A DNA stretch of 64,000 nucleotides from Octopus sinensis (Eukaryota): the NCBI RefSeq assembly GCF_006345805.1, contig NC_043000.1, positions 42,594,001 to 42,658,000 of the forward strand, written 5' to 3'. Made by a program: the position numbers and the translations under genes. Under the pieces are notes generated by a model. That model worked only from the letters and a program-made list of their open reading frames with translations. It did not search any database and was not told the DNA's origin. Shown here piece by piece: positions 5,024 to 63,727 of this stretch. The stretch's first letter is position 1. Each line of letters begins with the position of its first letter.

Positions 5024-5640
5024 TTAAATCTCAGAATGAGATTGAAACAGTAATCGCTCGATAATGTAAGGTATAGAAGCCATCTTATCATGGCTAACCA
5101 CATTAGAGAGGGGGTGTTACTGTAGCTTTATAGCCCCAAGAGATCTTCGTCTCTAGCTGGCTTTAGACACAATATCTGTGTCCTTGGAGTATTTGCAAAG
5201 GGAGGCCATCCCTTCCTCGCAAGCCTGAGTGATATGCTCGAACTAGTTTCGGGATTGTTGTCCCTCGTCAACGGGCGGTAACCACCAGGTAGCGATGAAA
5301 GTGAAGGCTCCTTTGCAAATATATATAAGTTTTTCTTATGGCGTCTGCCACTGATGTCGAAAAACGAACAGTAAGCATTATTAAATCTCAGAATGAGATT
5401 GAAACAGTAATCGCTCGATAATGTAAAGTGTAGAAGCCATCTTATCATGGCTAACCACATTGGGAAGGGGGTGTTACTGTAGCTTTATAGCCCCAAGAGA
5501 TCTTCGTCTCTAGCTGGCTTTAGACACAGATATTGTGTCTAAAGCCAGCTAGAGACGAAGATCTCTTGGGGCTATAAAGCTACAGTAACACCCCCTCCCC
5601 AATGTGGTTAGCCATGATAAGATGGTTTCTATACTTTACA
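5024..5640 (-). mobile_element. Retrozyme/pLTR-like element: 357-bp unit, partial tandem copy, then inverted copy
   Basis: TTAAATCTCAGAATGAG occurs at 5024 and 5381 (period 357); 5422-5528 and 5534-5640 form a near-perfect palindrome; contains an HHR. Confidence 0.8.
5236..5276 (-). ncRNA. Minimal type-I hammerhead ribozyme (U3 variant)
   Basis: Minus strand: GCCCG UUGACGA GGGA caacaa UCCC GAAA cuag UU CGAGC. Stem I 4 of 5 bp, stem II 4 bp, palindromic CUAG loop III. Confidence 0.7.
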
Positions 5641-5707
5641 ATATTATATTATTTATATCTTTAAAATATTGTTTAAATATTTCTGATTATTAAAAAAATA
5701 TTTCAAT

Positions 5708-15242: not shown

Positions 15243-16358
15243 TTAAGGTGTTTCACACGAAATGTCGCATTTTAAATTACTTGTTATTCCAGTCATTAAA
15301 AACTCAATTACGTATACCTTGCATTTAATCTTGACTCGACTCTTTTTCTTTCCCAACGATGTTGCTATACAAAATTCGTACCCACAGACCTTATGAAAAT
15401 GATAACAACGAAACTATGTTGAGTATTTTCTCGTATGAGTGCAAACTGAGTCGCCTTGTCACAGAAGGAATATCAAGTGGTTTTGTTCAACCGGAAGTGT
15501 TCGGAGATGGTTCCTAAGCTCTTGTTCAGGAGATGATAGCCTTGAAAATAAACCAAGGGGTAGTCCAAAATCAGTTGTTCGGCATGATGGATTAAATGCT
15601 TAACAGATAGGTTTGTTCTACATAAGCTGAACGAGATGAAAAAAAAAAAGCCAGAAAAAAATAGACGCCCCGAAGTGTGCTTCTTATTGCTTTCTCGACT
15701 GGAAAAAGACCCCTTTTGCATCAAATCATTACTTGTGATGAGAAATGGATACTCTTTGACAACAGCAAGAGAACAGGACAGTGATTAGATGCAGGAGAGT
15801 CACCTAAACACTACCCTAACCCACCATTGCACCCTAAAACGTTAGTGATCACTGAATGGTGGTCTGCAAAGGGAGTTACTCATTATTCATTTTTGCAACA
15901 AGGAAATACGGTAACAGAAACATCGAATTGCCAGGAAATTGATTTTATACATGAGAATTTGAAAAAGAAGCAACCCAGACTAATGAATAGAGATGGCTCA
16001 TATTTACTCTACGACAATGAACGTCCTCACACTCCTCAAGCTACTGTCCAAAAGTTGCAAAGCCTAAATTATGAGATTTTGCAATATCCTCCCTATTCCC
16101 TTGATATCTCTGCTATTGATCATCACTTATCTAAGCATTTCGGGTTTTTCATAAGCAATAAAACATTCTTAAATAATAGAAGCTTTTTAGAAGCTAAAGA
16201 TGATCTTTTTTTTTAAAGATGGAATATATGACATAGAGAAACGTTGGCTAAACGTCATAAATGAACATGGATCATAATTTGATTAAATAAATCAGTTCTC
16301 TAACAACTCCGAAACATTTTAATGTTACCTTTTAAATATTTAATGTGAAACAGCCTAA
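15243..16358 (+). mobile_element. Defective mariner (D,D34D) transposon
   Basis: TIRs TA|TTAAGGTGTTTCAC and GTGAAACAGCCTAA|TA; ITCDEKWILFDN at ~15728; ORF 15827-16216 has YDNERPH and YPPYSLDISAIDHHL; internal deletion and stops. Confidence 0.9.
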
Positions 16359-24472: not shown

Positions 24473-25520
24473 CGAGGGAGAGTCAAAATTTATTTGCGCT
24501 CTTGTTTTTTCACTGTATTTACATAAAAGTAGGGGATAAACAAGTACGTCATTTTTCTGTATAGTCTCCTTTCTTTCCGTTGCACTAGGTCAAGCGGTCT
24601 ACAAGCTTGCGTATTCCTCCAAGAAGGTTTTCGGTCGGTCGTGCAACCATTTATACACCGTTTCCTTCACATCTTCATCCGTAGGAAATCGATGGTCACG
24701 TAAACCATCTTTGAGCGGTCCAAAGATATGATAGTCGGAAGGGGCGAGATCTGGGCTGTAGGCAGGGTGTACCAGCACCACAAAACCGAATTGGTTTGTG
24801 GTTCCAACAGTCTCGACGGCCAGGTGTAGGCGTGCATTGTCATGCAACAACAAAATTTCTTCTACACTAGGCTTCGGCGTTTGATGCAAATTGCTAGCGT
24901 CAGTTTGCTGGCCAGCAAAGCACTGTATCTTGCACTGTTAATGGTTCACCCCTTTTCCAGGTAGACTTCCAGGCCCTTTTGAGTAACAAAAACATCACCT
25001 TTCCCGCAGAAAACTGAATCTCGAATTTCTTCGTCGCTGGTGAGCCAGGATGTTTCCACTCCATACTCTGTCTCTTGGATTCTGTCTCATAATGATGGAC
25101 CCACATTTCACCTCCTATGACTATTCTGCTAAAACATTCTTCGCTCTCGTTTTTGTAGCGATCGAGTAAGCATTGACAGACTGCAAGACGTTTTGCAGTA
25201 AGCTCTCATGCCTTCTATCTTGCACAGACTTTGTGGAAGTCGAATTCATCGTGGGTGATTTGATAGGCAGAACCATGACTGATCTGCAGCGAACGAGCTA
25301 GAAGTCGGATCACTGATCTCTGTACATCTTAGGTTCACATTGCTAGTAGAGCGCCCATACTTACACTGTAAAGCCAGAAGGAAAGATGGCGCAATCAGAC
25401 TCAAACGTAGATCACGTGACCACAATAGTACTGACTATAAGCACGTATGCGCAGAAGGCAGTGTGACAATAATAATTATACGCTATGGCGAAAGTGCCGA
25501 TTACTTTTGATGGTGGCCCT
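24473..25520 (-). mobile_element. Defective mariner transposon (irritans-like TIR)
   Basis: TA|CGAGGGAGAGTCAAAA left end, ATTACTTTTGA right end; WVHHYETESKRQSMEWKHPGSP, SAGKVM, LLLHDNARLH, HPAYSPDLAPSDYHIFGPLKD. Confidence 0.9.
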
Positions 25521-31834: not shown

Positions 31835-32061
31835 GGAGGCGCGTAGCTCATGATCGTAAGATTGTGTTTTCGATTCCTGGACCGAGCGACGCATTGTGTT
31901 CTTGAGCAAAACACTTCATTTCACGTTGCTCCAGTCCCCTCAGCTGGAAAAAATGAGTAATGCTGCGATGGACTGGCGTGCCGTCCAGCTGCGGAATACA
32001 TACGCCATTGAAACCGGGAAACCGGGTCCATGAGCCTGGCTAGGCTTTAAAAGGGCGCATT

Positions 32062-32094: not shown

Positions 32095-32097
<3 letters not shown>

Positions 32098-32345
32098 GAG
32101 AGCGATAACTATACTGAGAAGTAATGTTTATCGCCACTTCAATACGTAGGAACGGACATTACTACAGCTTTTAACCACAGAAGGAGCCTCCTCCAGCTGG
32201 TTATCGATACAATCTACACTAGATTTATATTGCAGGCACGGGAACCAACTCCCACCATCTTCTAGCAGACGACGGGACCACCAGACCGTCCAGTTTCTAG
32301 CCCTTCATGCTGATCCTCAGTGGTGAACAATTTTGACATATTATA
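32095..32345 (-). mobile_element. Short retrozyme-like element related to the 5024 and 45376 elements
   Basis: Non-repetitive island between (TA)n tracts containing an HHR and the shared downstream module. Confidence 0.65.
32279..32325 (-). ncRNA. Type-I hammerhead ribozyme, canonical core
   Basis: Minus strand: CACCA CUGAGGA UcAGC augaagg GCUA GAAA CU ggac GG UC UGGUG. Perfect 5-bp stem I, GUC cleavage triplet. Confidence 0.85.
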
Positions 32346-32365
32346 TTATGTATATATATATATCA

Positions 32366-32562
32366 CGTGATCAGATGTTGCTACACATCGCTGGTCACAA
32401 TGCGTTCGCATCATTTTAGCCTTCAAATGACGCCACCTCGCTGGTTAAGCGAGCAGGCCAACAGAAGAGTGAGAGAAAGAGTAGTAAAAGAGTACAGCAG
32501 GGATCACCACCCCCTGCCGGAGCCTCGTGGAGCTTTTAGGTGTTTTCGCTTAATAAACACAC
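32366..32562 (-). mobile_element. SINE fragment
   Basis: Reverse-complement similarity to the 47640-48010 SINE (CCTAAAAGCTCCACGAGGCTCCGGCAGGGG...CCCTGCTGTACTCTTT). Confidence 0.7.
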
Positions 32563-32829
32563 AGGTTGTGTGTTGATGTAACGGTAACACACTTGGTCGC
32601 GAAAGCAAAGAGATGTGGGTTCGTGTCCCGCGAGTACGGGTAAACCTAGGTTTTTCTTTTCTGTCGAGGGGATTATATGCCCCATTATTGTACTTGCGCG
32701 GTGCTCGCTGTTAATGTTGATAAAATAATATATGTTATGCGGTGAGGTTTCAGCAGGTATGATAACACTCGATCATCCTAGAGAGTAAAGAAAATGTTAT
32801 CATAAAAACCACAAGTTTTGTTCGATAAT

Positions 32830-39307: not shown

Positions 39308-39895
39308 AATGCGGTTTTTTCAACAGCTTTAACTAAAAGTCAGAGGGGAATGGGATAAACCACTTATATTAACTTGCTATAAAAGCAGGCAGTAATTTTA
39401 TCTTGTCCTTATTCATAGTGCAAGTTTTGAAGAGTGCATTTCGATTTTAACAGCTATTTTTTTCAAAGCTATATTGGAAGTAACAAAGGAGCATATTTGG
39501 CATATTTTACTTTATGAGTTCAATAAAGACAACAACGCAACGGAAAGTACAAGAAATATTAATGCAGTATATGGGGATTGGACAATAAGCGTAAGGCAGT
39601 GTCAATGGTGGCTCCAGAAATTCCGAGCCATAAACTACAGCCTAGAAGACGAGCCTCATCCTGAAAGATCTGTAGAACTCGACAAGGACATCCTGAAAAC
39701 CCTGGTGGAACAAAATCTCAACGTAACTGTTGAGGAACTAGCAGAGAAGCTTGGATTTGGTCATTCAACCATTCATTGAGACCTGTGTGCTATCGGAAAA
39801 GTCAGCAAATTGGGTCAATGGGTTCCTCACGAACTTTCCGAGTCTAATTGCATGCAGAGAGTGAATGTATGCTTTTCTTTGCTGTCACATCTCAC
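39308..39895 (+). mobile_element. 5' half of a mariner transposon
   Basis: ORF 39474-39779 MEVTKEHIWHILLYEFNKDNNATESTRNINAVYG...LEDEPH...TVEELAEKL (HTH domains), then WVPHEL at ~39819. Confidence 0.9.
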
Positions 39896-45320: not shown

Positions 45321-45375
<55 letters not shown>

Positions 45376-45379
<4 letters not shown>

Positions 45380-45613
45380 GAAATATTAAAATAACTAAGT
45401 CTCTCTACGCTGCATTGAAAAGGGGCAATACCCCGAAACGCGTCTGTAGCTGCCGGTCAAGTAGTGTGGAGCGACTGACCTCCCTTGTTCGAAGGTTATA
45501 TGGATACAGTTTGTGTATCAAATAGCTAACTTAAGGCGATGGCCTCATGGAGCTAATAAGCGGACAGCTTTTTTCTTATTTTTATAAGAATGCCATATTA
45601 GTATGGCGATAAC

Positions 45614-45620
<7 letters not shown>
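45376..45620 (+). mobile_element. Short retrozyme-like element in (TA)n
   Basis: ~245-bp island between (TA)n tracts with an HHR, the shared module and a terminal GCCATA-TTAG-TATGGC hairpin. Confidence 0.7.
45409..45450 (+). ncRNA. Minimal type-I hammerhead ribozyme, U3-A8 core variant
   Basis: GCUGCA UUGAAAA GGGG caaua CCCC GAAA CGCG UC UGUAGC. 6-bp stem I, 4-bp stem II, palindromic CGCG loop III, GUC site. Confidence 0.8.
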
Positions 45621-52929: not shown

Positions 52930-54080
52930 TTGCCTTTGAACACACACACTATTTATTTGAGATTTACTTCAGCTGTATTATTAGTTTATTTCTCAGAATC
53001 TTTCGTCACACATTCTGTGACCTTTTCAACGTCTTTCTTCTGTGACTCCTCTTCTCTCTGGTCTTGTCCTGTCACTTCCATTTTATCTTTGTTGTGTGCA
53101 TGGATATGGGTTTGTATATTATACAGTACCCATATCTTGTATTTATTTATTTTTTATATTATATCTTTAGTCGTCACGTTGCGTAGTGTGGTGGAGTGGG
53201 GATGTGGGTGTTTTTACTTCATTTCCATTTTCTGTTGAGGGTCGGTCTATTTTCAATTATGTGTGTGGCCTCAATAATCTGTCTGAGTATCGTGTCGGTT
53301 CTACATATCGATACGTCTATGTTATCTCCCCATATTCTAATTTAGGATGGTGGTGCAGTACTGACAACCTGTTGTCCTCCTTCAGATCCCGCCAGTGTTC
53401 ACTTATTTTACGGAATGTCTCTCCAAGGTACATCGTTGTCCTGCTTTTGTACTGTCCCTCAGTATACTTTTTACTATAGACTGCATTCCTACTTTTACAA
53501 TTAATATATCAGCTAACTCTACATACTATACAATTCCTCTCCGTACGGGGGTTTCTTTTAAAAGGGCATGTTCTACGGATCAGGTATTTTATGGGTGTTC
53601 CTGGCCTTTCTACTACTCTAATCCTTAGATTCATCTTTTCTAAAATAATACGCTAGTTCACCTCCAGGCTAATATCGACGAACATGACACTCTGGTATTT
53701 TTTGTTGTCATAACATGAGTCAGTGTTACCTATCTTCCTCTTAGTTCTTTCAGTGCTATTCGAAGAGTTACTCCTGTATAGCAGACAGGTCCCATTTGTG
53801 TCCTTCTCTATGACGGTCTTAAATTTTACCGTGACTCTTTTGTACACCCTAATTCTATTTCTTTGACTGTACCCAGAGCACTGCATGCATTGGATGTGTC
53901 TCTCTAATTCCGTTGGGTCGCACATGCGGGACAAATACGATTTTTTAAATAATGAATTTGGTATTTTCCGTGATTGCTGCGTTCCAGTGGATCAGATATG
54001 TGAAGGCCATGGATTTGGCATGGTGCAAATGGAGGATATGGACCTTGCTATTCTTTGTTTCCATCTAGGGCTCAGTGCCT
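52930..54080 (-). pseudogene. PLE remnant: RT thumb plus GIY-YIG endonuclease
   Basis: SRMCDPTELERH...SGYS (cf. RxxxxCS...NGYP), GIV* followed by YLGETFRKISEH, and RQIIEATHI on the minus strand. Confidence 0.7.
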
Positions 54081-55089
54081 AAAACAGGTAGTATTTAGTT
54101 GATGTGCTTAGTAGGATAATCTACTGTTACCTTAATAGTTTGGTTGATGAAATTAGCTATTTGCTGGATGTTTTCCATGGTACTAGCTTCTAGTTCATAG
54201 CTATCTAATTCGAGGTAAATTTGGCTGTTATTATTACCAGATGAGTGACCACAAGGCAGACAACTGATATTTGAAAGGTAATGATACCTGAAATGCACGA
54301 TGATCAATAAAAAATATTAGTTACGCACAGGAAGAAATAATCTGTAAATTTCTAGTTCTTATACAACAGTAACATCTCATTTACATGACGGAAACTATTC
54401 TTTAAAAGAAATAGCAAGATAGGCCTGTAGGAGATCACTCGGTTCCATAGAAATGGCAGCCAACAAAATATCGTTGAACTAACACGATCCTCTCTTTAGA
54501 AAAAGGAAATAATACTGGATAATTCTCTTCTCGACCCAATAAACCTGAACAAACTGTGAGGTAGTCGAGGTTGGAATTCATGTAAGATAGCGCTGCTTGT
54601 TGAGCACACAACAATGGATAAGTAAAAGAAACGCAACTGATCAACGAAAAATCTGCATCAACAGATGTTGCAAACTCAGCGAATACATTTACCAAGATTA
54701 GTGCGATAAATATGTCTATCTACAATAAGAAAATTACATTATATATATTCACTGTTATCATTTCCCGGTCTGAAAAAATTAGCAATTTATGGGGAAATAT
54801 GGGAAATAAATAAAATCAGTTTTGGATATATATCTAACTACCTTTGATGTGAAGTTGATTTCATGAAATAACGCATATGCTGAATTAACTATAGATAGGG
54901 ATAGTAGTGTGTGTGTGTGTTTGTGTATTTGATACAGTATGCTAGAAATGCAAATGAACACAACATACATGTATGAACATATATGTATATACATATACAT
55001 ACATGCATTCATGTATACACATGTATACACATATATACATCCACACTCACACACACAGGCACACATATTTATGTATTACTATGTAACTG

Positions 55090-62099: not shown

Positions 62100-63727
62100 C
62101 AGTTGCGGCCAAAATGTTCAGAACGGCATTGTTTTCGTCAGAAAAGTAGGTATAAGTTTTTATCAAAGTTGTTTTATATTCTATAATTTTCCCAAACAAT
62201 AAATACGATATGAATTGTTATTGTCTGATATTTTGGTGTAATTTGAGAGGATAATATAAAACGTATGGATGATTTAGTGATTTACTGCAAAACCCATGGC
62301 GGCCAAAATGATCAGAACGGTTGAAAGTATAACAAAATAATCAAAAATGACAGAGAATACTGGAATTATTTAATATTTAGTGTGAGGACCTTTAGCTTCA
62401 ATCACACTTTGACATCTTCGACTGCATGAGGAAATTAAATTTTCAATTTCTTGCTGGGTAATCTTATTCCATTCTTCCTGAAGGGCATTCCATAATTCCT
62501 TGGTTGTTTTAGGATTTCTGTCTTTCGAAGGTTTTCCTAGAATATTCCACACATTTTCAATAGGATTGAGATCTGGGCTTTGAGCAGGTCAATCCATAAC
62601 AATAACCTTTTCAGCCTTGAGGAAGTTCATGATCACCTTAGCCTTTTGACATGGGGCATTGTCCTGCATGAATATCGGTGGTCGCTTAGCTGAATTTCTC
62701 AGCACAGGTAAGGCATGATCTTTTACAAGTTGTTTATAAACTCCTTCATTTACCTTTCCATGTAATTGCACCAAAGGGCCCCACGCCATCTCTAGATATC
62801 ATCCCCCAAACCATGACACTTCCTCCACCGAATTTAACACTAGTCTTAAGGCATTTAGGCGACAACTTTTCACCTACTTTTCGACGAAAGTACCTTTTCC
62901 CATCTGAGCCAAATAATATAAACTTAGATTCATCACTGAATTGCACTGTTTGCCATTTTTATTGAGACCATAACACATTTCGGTTGCAAAGGTAAGATGA
63001 CACTTTTTATTCTTGGAGCTGATCAGTGGCTTCACTGCAGGTACTCTTGCTTGTAGGCCATGTTCAACTAAACGACGAGACAGTTTTTCGAGATAAGGTT
63101 TTCTTCAGTACAATGCTCATTTCCAGAGAAACAGCAGCAGCTGTTTTAAATCTGTCCTTTTTAACCAATTTTACCATAGCACGATCTCCTCTCTTGGTCG
63201 TTTTCTTGGCCTACCTGTAGATTTTCTTGCTTCACACGAACCACAATCATCGTAGACCTTAAGAATACCGTGAACAACACTTTTTGACTTGTTAACAATC
63301 GTTGCAATATACCCAATACTTAAATTATCATTCTTTCGAAGCTTAATAATCTGCTGACGAATTGGTAACAGAGTAAGTGGCATTATATTAACAAAGTACA
63401 CTGCAGATATTCTTACTAATGTTTAGTAAACGAACCGTCACGTAAACAAATTCAAACATTAGAGTTCGCCGGTTAAATATACTAAAATACAGAGTAAAAG
63501 CAACCGTTCTGAACATTTTGGAAACCATGGGTTTTGCAGTAAATCACTAAATCATCCATAGCTTTTGTATTATCCTCTCAAATTACACCAAAATCTCAGA
63601 CAATAACAAATAATACCGTATGTATTGTCTGTGAAAATTATAGAATATACAACAACTTTGATAAAAAAACTTAAACCTACTTTTCTGACGAAAACAATGC
63701 CGTTATGAACATTTTTGGCCGCAACTG
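62100..63727 (-). mobile_element. Near-full-length Tc1 (D,D34E) transposon with IR/DR-type long TIRs
   Basis: TA|CAGTTGCGGCCAAAA...TTTTGGCCGCAACTG|TA; ~225-bp TIRs (62100-62323, 63501-63727), each with two DRs GCGGCCAAAATG(T/A)TCAGAACGG. Confidence 0.95.
62370..63383 (-). pseudogene. Tc1 transposase, frameshifted
   Basis: GRPRK, FSDESKF, KFGGGSVMVWG, QDNAPC, QSPDLNPIENVW, ending KGPHTKY*; split across several frames. Confidence 0.93.

What the first reader, a model, noticed from the sequence alone, without database searches (positions are those of the whole stretch)
45376..45620. Three divergent hammerhead elements share a second, covarying structured module at a fixed distance
Seen: elements at 5024-5380(-), 32095-32345(-) and 45376-45620(+) have low primary identity. 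Each has an HHR followed 58, ~50 and 58 nt later by the same architecture. Read antisense to the HHR: A (5124-5182) AGCU-uuau-AGCC-ccaa-GAGAU cuuc GUCUC-u-AGCU-GGCU-uua-GACACA auauc UGUGUC; B (32165-32232) CAGCU-uu-UAACC-acagaa-GGAG ccuc CUCC-AGCU-GGUUA..AAUCUA cac UAGAUU; C (45503-45561) GCUU-au-UAGCU-ccau-GAGGC cauc GCCUU-AAGU-UAGCUA-uuu-GAUACA caaac UGUAUC. The stems covary (AGCC/GGCU, UAACC/GGUUA, UAGCU/AGCUA), the loop is always C-H-U-C, and two stems cross as in a pseudoknot. The G-U wobbles favour the strand opposite the HHR. All three also carry a GCGAT(A/T)A motif near the 3' end. Known: minimal type-I HHRs mark PLE pLTRs and non-LTR retrozymes. Inference: a conserved second RNA or cDNA element that I do not recognise, such as an RT-recognition or priming signal or an antisense ribozyme. 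The helix order is HDV-like but the 7-bp P1 and catalytic J4/2 CNRA are missing.
Basis: partly seen in the sequence, partly recalled or inferred. Interest (0 to 1): 0.8.

Follow-up and report, generated by a model that had tools for sequence, protein, structure and literature searches.

The report
Conserved RNA hairpin in hammerhead retroelements
The three elements are copies of one large family of ~360-base, non-coding, hammerhead-carrying repeats whose 'second module' is a hairpin domain kept by compensatory changes in over 14,000 copies; it likely folds on the RNA strand and would be the handle by which a Penelope-type reverse transcriptase picks these RNAs up for copying.

Summary
A, B and C are subfamilies of one superfamily of 357-364 nt repeats with a type I hammerhead (HHR) in a 2.7-Gb, probably octopus, genome: tandem units, inverted 5'-truncated arms and two alternative 3' ends, as in Penelope-like elements (PLEs) and non-LTR retrozymes. 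The module core occurs 14,685 times (control 153). Its nested stems covary strongly. The proposed pseudoknot stem shows no covariation, the C-H-U-C loop is not invariant, the GCGAT motif is not homologous in A, and it is neither HDV-like nor twister-sister-like. Strand evidence leans to the HHR strand (12 G-U against 4 A-C fixed pairs), not the opposite one. The fixed spacing arises because the spacer is one arm of a long rod with the HHR at its tip. The module is the best-conserved part of a unit that is structured throughout, survives in a young subfamily with a mutated HHR core, and lies 60-125 nt upstream of the two inferred reverse-transcription starts. Most likely role (about 50%, untested): RNA recognition signal for a PLE RT-endonuclease. 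No autonomous PLE carrying it was found.

The parts
45374..45404 (-). Element C: short inverted arm, the 'long' 3' end of the unit, pointing outwards into (TA)n
45405..45615 (+). Element C: 5'-truncated unit of the young C subfamily (unit 363 nt), ending at the 'short' 3' end before (TA)n
45409..45450 (+). C: type I HHR, U3-A8 core variant, palindromic stem III, predicted cleavage after 45444
   Evidence: U3-A8 variant described in PMC4209133
45451..45497 (+). C: 3' arm of the long rod that carries the HHR at its tip (partner arm lost here by truncation); this is the fixed spacer
   Evidence: predicted folds of full units
45503..45519 (+). C: hairpin S4 (6 bp)
45523..45555 (+). C: module core, stem S2 (5 bp) - 4x3 internal loop (AACU/UGG here) - hairpin S3
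45559..45568 (+).
45592..45607 (+). C: hairpin S7; the GCGAT motif overlaps its 3' arm
5024..5380 (-). Element A: full 357-nt unit ending at the long 3' end; HHR 5241-5277, rod base 5308-5320 with 5191-5204, S4 5166-5182, core 5131-5163, S8 5' arm 5117-5123, S7 5079-5094, S9 about 5028-5042
5381..5539 (-). A: second, 5'-truncated tandem unit
5523..5644 (+). A: inverted arm ending at the short 3' end; joint lies in S4
32095..32345 (-). Element B: old, decayed single copy between (TA)n runs; HHR 32284-32325, S4 32206-32220, core 32172-32203, S8 5' arm 32159-32165

Best explanation
The three elements are copies of one superfamily of 357-364 nt non-coding, hammerhead-bearing repeats with Penelope-type insertion structure, and the module is a covarying nested hairpin domain of that unit which likely folds on the hammerhead (RNA) strand and would serve as the recognition signal by which a Penelope-like reverse transcriptase-endonuclease loads the RNA. 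Shown: family membership, tandem and inverted arrangement, two alternative 3' ends, covariation of S2/S3/S4, no pseudoknot covariation. Inferred steps: tandem arrays are transcribed; the unit folds into a rod with the HHR at its tip, then S4, the S2/loop/S3 core, an S8-closed junction with S6/S7, and S9; a PLE protein supplied in trans binds this 3' domain, nicks AT-rich or (TA)n DNA on both strands and starts cDNA at two internal sites 57-70 and 110-125 nt downstream of the core, which leaves one short-ended and one long-ended arm joined head to head. HHR cleavage and circularisation would supply monomers or circles but may be dispensable. Confidence by part: retrozyme/PLE-type identity about 0.95; RNA-strand fold about 0.75; RT-recognition role about 0.5.
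For: Architecture: units of 356-357 (A), 363 (B, C), 364 (H), 360 nt; 16 of 21 A loci with an inverted arm have one long and one short end, none two long ends; bimodal 3' ends in A (13 short, up to 35 long, of 50) and young C (9 short, 11 long, of 39). This matches the PLE 'tail' (PMC8557442) and the two internal RT starts with extension of both strands shown for the anole PLE, whose minimal template lies just downstream of the HHR and whose insertion does not need HHR cleavage (PMC11167929). Constraint: S2/loop/S3 is the best-conserved block in 14 full units (mean column identity 0.82, loop strands 0.95-0.96, rod arms 0.53-0.57); compensatory changes at 13 of 17 pairs. In 30 copies picked by their 3' hairpins, 20 keep the module and 10 are 5'-truncated before or inside it; none skips it internally. 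A divergent, young, abundant subfamily H keeps all stems with new letters while its HHR core reads CCGAUGA in 37 of 39 copies. Strand: family-fixed inner non-Watson-Crick pairs 12 G-U vs 4 A-C; G-U in S3 of H in 46 of 51 copies; HHR strand folds lower in 8 of 11 full units, better z-score in 10 of 11 and lower in 5 of 6 further ones; alignment fold -23.3 vs -20.9 kcal/mol.
Against: No autonomous PLE carrying the module was found: the model hit none of the 3' UTRs of the Neptune-like, Nematis-like or Penelope/Poseidon-like families examined; module copies next to PLE ORFs were separate insertions in (TA)n. No binding or RT data exist. Strand evidence is modest: 12 vs 4 is about p 0.08 two-sided (by hand) and events are not independent; the script missed A-C pairs seen by eye in young C (S3) and in S8 of the C lineage, and a G-U in older C; family A folds lower on the antisense strand; for the isolated 77-nt modules z-scores favour antisense in B and C. 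The internal loop is not invariant (AUCA/UAG in H). Six of the 14 units in the conservation count were found by the module pattern itself. The anole element's required region is nearer the HHR than this module's downstream start sites.
Confidence: 0.5

Rival explanations
1. The domain acts in the life of the RNA rather than in RT loading: it binds a host protein or stabilises the linear or circular retrozyme RNA (ligation, export, protection from decay).
For: Metazoan retrozymes accumulate as abundant, highly paired circles (PMC7229834); the whole unit is structured; contigs from probable RNA runs cover the C unit across the unit junction; no PLE 3' end resembles it.
Against: The module persists where the HHR core is mutated, so it does not track with presumed circle formation; it sits in the same 3' domain as the two insertion ends.
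Confidence: 0.22
2. One reading: the structure works on the strand opposite the HHR, as a cDNA signal (pause, strand joining, second-strand priming) or an antisense pseudoknot.
For: A few fixed A-C pairs on the HHR strand; family A folds lower antisense; the inversion joint of window element A lies in S4.
Against: No pseudoknot covariation; G-U excess on the HHR strand; 5' ends and inversion joints are scattered over the unit in A and C, with no pile-up at the module.
Confidence: 0.1
3. The core is a second, new small self-cleaving or ligating ribozyme built on the conserved internal loop.
For: Two stems around a conserved internal loop is the plan of minimal twister-sister-like ribozymes (PMC11620745); the loop is as conserved as the HHR core and persists where the HHR is mutated.
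Against: Loop sizes (4x3 vs 6x5) and letters differ, no conserved C-A site; loop letters change in H; no Rfam ribozyme match; no pile-up of 5' ends at the loop.
Confidence: 0.06
4. The conserved block is a DNA element (internal promoter or endonuclease site) and the stems are a by-product.
For: High primary conservation of S2 and the loop; PLE pLTRs carry internal promoters (mentioned in PMC8557442).
Against: Compensatory changes at most pairs of three stems are not expected for a duplex protein site.
Confidence: 0.07
5. No function: the module is shared only by descent.
For: All subfamilies are homologous; the shuffle control ignores relatedness.
Against: Several independent double changes per stem, also in the divergent H lineage, while spacers diverge to 53-60% column identity.
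Confidence: 0.05

Closest known systems
Non-LTR retrozymes (Cervera and de la Pena 2020, PMC7229834; bioRxiv 10.64898/2026.07.22.740005)
   Same: Short tandem units with a type I HHR, no protein, unit size like mussel (350-400 nt) and axolotl (331, 353 nt) retrozymes, highly paired predicted fold.
   Different: Mostly dispersed monomers to short arrays with inverted arms and a tail; a covarying non-ribozyme domain conserved across subfamilies was not mentioned in the passages I read; circles and cleavage not shown here.
pLTRs of EN+ Penelope-like elements, esp. anole Poseidon PAc (PMC11167929; PMC8557442; PMC4209133)
   Same: HHR followed by a structured region with two alternative 3' ends; partial tandem plus inverted 5'-truncated copy; AT-rich/(TA)n targets; U3-A8 HHR variant.
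   Different: No ORF; tail 44-60 nt rather than 30-40; no sequence link found to any autonomous PLE family examined in this genome.
HDV-like ribozymes of R2/RTE-type elements
   Same: Only that a hairpin sits between the arms of another stem.
   Different: No covarying crossing stem, S4 lies outside rather than inside the P2 equivalent, no P1.1 or J4/2, no Rfam match.
Minimal twister-sister-like ('lantern') ribozymes (PMC11620745)
   Same: Two stems around a conserved internal loop, variable apical loop.
   Different: 4x3 instead of 6x5 loop, no conserved C-A cleavage site.

Membership tests
Non-LTR retrozyme | Short tandem units, each with a type I HHR | tested here: met
   Arrays with 356-364 nt units; HHR cores vary (U3-A8 in C, U3 with G8 in A, U4C in H)
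Non-LTR retrozyme | No protein-coding capacity | tested here: met
   Longest stop-free frames in three arrays 35-111 aa; one 118-aa frame in window copy A; no PLE protein match inside units
Non-LTR retrozyme | Self-cleavage of multimeric transcripts | not testable with these tools
   needs an in vitro assay
Non-LTR retrozyme | Expression as linear and circular monomer RNA | tested here: inconclusive
   Contigs of runs guessed to be RNA cover the units; no run on record as RNA; contigs show neither strand nor circles
Non-autonomous PLE derivative | Partial tandem plus inverted 5'-truncated copy | tested here: met
   21 of 30 A loci have an inverted arm; also C and H
Non-autonomous PLE derivative | Tail: two alternative 3' ends, one at each side | tested here: met
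   tail about 44-48 nt in A and 55-60 nt in C and H, longer than the 30-40 nt of PMC8557442
Non-autonomous PLE derivative | Sequence shared with the pLTR of an autonomous PLE | tested here: not met
   No model hit in the 3' ends of the Neptune-like, Nematis-like and Poseidon-like families sampled; Naiad and Hydra families were not sampled, so the search is incomplete
H-type pseudoknot | Second, crossing stem kept by compensatory change | tested here: not met
   absent in H
HDV-like ribozyme | Nested double pseudoknot with P4 and J4/2 between P1 and the 3' arm of P2 (recalled) | tested here: not met
   S4 lies outside S2 on either strand; no Rfam hit
Twister-sister-like ribozyme | 6x5 internal loop with a conserved C-A cleavage site | tested here: not met
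   4x3 loop, AGCU/UGG in most units against PMC11620745

The most novel reading that the evidence does not exclude
A cephalopod retrozyme superfamily carries a dedicated, evolutionarily conserved RNA domain that recruits Penelope-like reverse transcriptases it shares no sequence with and sets the two internal priming sites: the first defined RNA handle for this telomerase-related RT class, more essential to the element than its ribozyme.
Probability: 0.3. Interest if true: 0.75.

Novelty: new variant of a known kind. Interest (0 to 1): 0.48.

Why it matters
How Penelope-like RTs, the closest retroelement relatives of telomerase, choose their RNA and start internally is open, and the mobilisation of animal retrozymes by PLEs has rested on co-occurrence and phylogeny. 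Here more than 14,000 copies in many subfamilies give a natural mutagenesis of the whole RNA: a covariation-backed structure, two mapped insertion ends with the PLE tail signature, and a subfamily that spread with a mutated ribozyme core. That makes RT recognition directly testable on a 360-nt template. If the module proves to be only a stabilising hairpin, this is still a new abundant retrozyme family, but an ordinary one.

Tried and rejected
Rfam: window scan to E 1 gave only microsatellite/inverted-repeat miRNA matches below gathering score (150 of 159 listed); 8 family loci, 0 at gathering score; HHRs themselves were not detected by Rfam. Idea that S4 is a strand-joining hot spot (from window element A): rejected, joints scattered. 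A local hairpin 'S5' upstream of S4: better explained as part of the rod arm. A long-range partner for the internal loop: no column compensates the G/A/U changes at loop position 2 in 85 C-lineage copies (read by eye). Autonomous partner: GIY-YIG family search (150 of 5029 candidates scored), Nematis-like protein search (150 of 7636), Poseidon-type motif pattern (134 matches, 30 loci read): none carries the module. Protein homolog search returned only Neptune-like relatives among the 120 listed. Motif look-up in the supplement of PMC8557442 showed no module in the passages displayed (first two places per term). Metagenome scan: 114 matches, chance level, 3 weak model hits among 80 (E 0.02-0.3), none with HHR context. 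Expression: no RNA holder listed on record; contigs uninformative on strand. A loose HHR regex had 25 of 96 false hits and was replaced by a strict one (31 of 96 vs 2 of 96). end-mapping was spoiled by (TA)n flanks and redone. Earlier findings: none returned. The supplement of PMC7229834, which shows mussel and other retrozyme sequences and folds, could not be read, nor that of the bioRxiv preprint; a similar domain could be drawn there.

Full report
Setting. The window lies on contig C4 of a 2.72-Gb genome rich in microsatellites. I infer an octopus from size and repeat content; no call shows it. The window holds no coding part that belongs to the three elements.

Observation. The quoted letters are present. 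Each element has a type I hammerhead: C with the U3-A8 core variant (described for PLEs in PMC4209133, first quarter of the text read), A with U3 opposite G8, a GUU site and a C-A mismatch in stem I, B canonical. Cleavage site to hairpin S4 is 58, 58 and 63 nt in family register.

What the elements are. Genome searches gave 19, 109 and 51 matches for C, A and B (lower bounds; 18, 40 of 2088 and 40 of 845 candidates scored). Copies form tandem units of 356-364 nt, often with an inverted, 5'-truncated arm (21 of 30 A loci), in (TA)n or AT-rich DNA. 3' ends are bimodal, counted from the end of stem S2: A 13 at +64-70 and 35 at +110-114 of 50 (the 35 is an upper bound, since the reference ended there and copies that run on into a next unit fall in that class); young C 9 at +55-66 and 11 at +122-125 of 39, 16 running on. 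Of 21 A loci with two arms, 16 have one long and one short end, none two long ends, 5 other (two of them one array; the query selected for one long end). This is the PLE arrangement and 'tail' (PMC8557442, passages and section 11 read), which in the anole element reflects two internal RT starts with extension of both target strands (PMC11167929, first half read). Short HHR-bearing tandem units without protein are non-LTR retrozymes (PMC7229834, passages and discussion), proposed to derive from PLEs (bioRxiv 10.64898/2026.07.22.740005, first fifth and passages).

One superfamily. A pattern for the module core alone has 14,685 matches against 153 for its control. 258 copies kept from 268 pattern hits (10 without relatives dropped; one false hit dropped later) fall into 87 units, 12 with three or more copies. 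A and C align at 62%; B shares the same blocks. Linkage to the HHR holds both ways: 31 of 96 module-picked copies have a strict HHR 79-101 nt upstream (control 2 of 96; many others are truncated or decayed); 17 of 30 HHR-picked loci (15 of 28 arrays) have the module, the rest being other PLE ribozymes or chance hits (pattern 8,247 matches, control 930).

Structure. On 120 distinct model-aligned copies the three nested stems are 89.4% paired (shuffled 79.0, slid 31-54), with double changes at 13 of 17 pairs (the alignment was fitted to this structure and the shuffle ignores kinship). An unfitted alignment of 14 full units predicts S2, S3, S7, S9 and HHR stem II; it did not recover S4, S8 or the rod, whose arms align poorly between lineages. 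Single-sequence folds show a recurrent plan on the HHR strand: a rod of about 60 bp with the HHR at its tip, S4, S2/loop/S3, a junction closed by S8 holding S6 and S7, then S9; rod-base, S7 and S8 letters change in step between lineages (read by eye). The spacer between HHR and module is the rod's 3' arm, which accounts for the fixed distance. The short end falls inside the S8 junction just after S7, the long end just after S9.

Pseudoknot. The crossing stem has no covariation, can form in full in 18 or 22 of 87 units (permutation means 13.7 and 19.4), is not compensated when the loop changes to AACU or AUCU, overlaps the 5' arm of S8 in B and C, and is absent in subfamily H. A 2-3 bp tertiary contact is not excluded. 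The helix order is therefore not HDV-like, and the 4x3 loop does not match twister-sister-like ribozymes (PMC11620745, abstract and passages). Rfam has no match.

Strand. Cells in the alignment: 145 G-U against 80 A-C, inflated by a misregistered S4 in B. Family-fixed inner pairs from G-U-free folds: 412 Watson-Crick, 12 G-U, 4 A-C, 13 other. Full units fold lower on the HHR strand in 8 of 11, 5 of 6 and 2 of 3 as circles; family A is the exception. The isolated modules do not decide it. Net: HHR strand, about 3 to 1.

Constraint. S2/loop/S3 is the best-conserved stretch of the unit (6 of 14 units were found by that pattern). No copy among 30 picked by S7 and S9 skips it internally. Subfamily H (364 nt, 94-98% identical copies, 2469 first-look candidates) keeps every stem, changes the loop to AUCA/UAG (51 and 50 of 51) and has CCGAUGA at the HHR core in 37 of 39. 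That U4C harms cleavage is recalled, not tested; the anole work shows insertion without HHR cleavage.

Partner. The genome has autonomous PLEs with intact ORFs: Neptune-like (775-883 aa frames, RT plus GIY-YIG) and Nematis-like, and a decayed Penelope/Poseidon-like family; clade labels rest on recalled motifs and PMC8557442. Each has its own HHR and none the module. Naiad and Hydra families, listed for octopus in the supplement of PMC8557442, were not sampled.

Mechanism. Shown: family, arrangement, ends, covariation. Inferred: RNA-strand fold, trans-mobilisation by a PLE protein, recognition through the module and neighbouring 3' domain. The main rival is a role in RNA stability or host-protein binding; the data cannot separate the two.

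Novelty. Five literature searches returned no paper describing such a domain in retrozymes or pLTRs; passages of an octopus repeat annotation (PMC13282606) and the giant squid genome paper (PMC6962438) mention PLEs or hammerheads only as counts. Unread supplements and Repbase/Dfam could hold these families. Verdict: a new, abundant variant of a known kind, with a real but differently built second domain; interest 0.48.

Noticed in passing
L469, L484-L513 (e.g. G000:C1:9388560-9388900): Divergent young subfamily H: HHR core CCGAUGA in 37 of 39 copies yet thousands of candidates genome-wide; all stems kept.
   Followed up: partly
window 52960-54193 (-): Decayed Nematis-like PLE (RT C-terminus and endonuclease, 50-60% identity to an intact relative) with a U3-A8 HHR-like motif near 53029-52995, ending in (TA)n.
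   Followed up: partly
window 5090-5107: One contig of run X6 has five clustered A-to-G differences over element A, as from A-to-I editing of an inverted repeat; single contig, no DNA control.
   Followed up: no
window 5523-5539: The inversion joint of A sits in hairpin S4 with the loop flipped, as expected if two cDNA ends joined through the 6-bp stem; not a family-wide hot spot.
   Followed up: yes
window 45405; L001-L006, L011, L012, L014-L016: Many C copies begin just 5' of HHR stem I, several with the same joint to an inverted long-end stub; partly selected by the query, possibly an RT stop or microhomology hot spot.
   Followed up: partly
L142:5439-5770; L190:6640-7100; L468: Retrozyme copies inserted into (TA)n runs at the ends of Neptune-like elements, mimicking pLTRs.
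   Followed up: yes
L141-L147, L270-L275: Several PLE copies with intact long ORFs (Neptune-like with an upstream ORF1; Nematis-like), candidates for currently active elements.
   Followed up: partly
window 31835-32060 and about 32350-32600: SINE-like repeats flank element B on both sides (read by eye).
   Followed up: no
window 15785-16216, 24599-25205, 39396-39779, 62157-63667: Tc1/mariner-like transposase fragments (by eye) and a 167-nt inverted repeat pair 1.2 kb apart.
   Followed up: no
L396-L401, L411: The Penelope/Poseidon-like family has a tRNA-like stretch upstream of its HHR in the 3' UTR (by eye).
   Followed up: no
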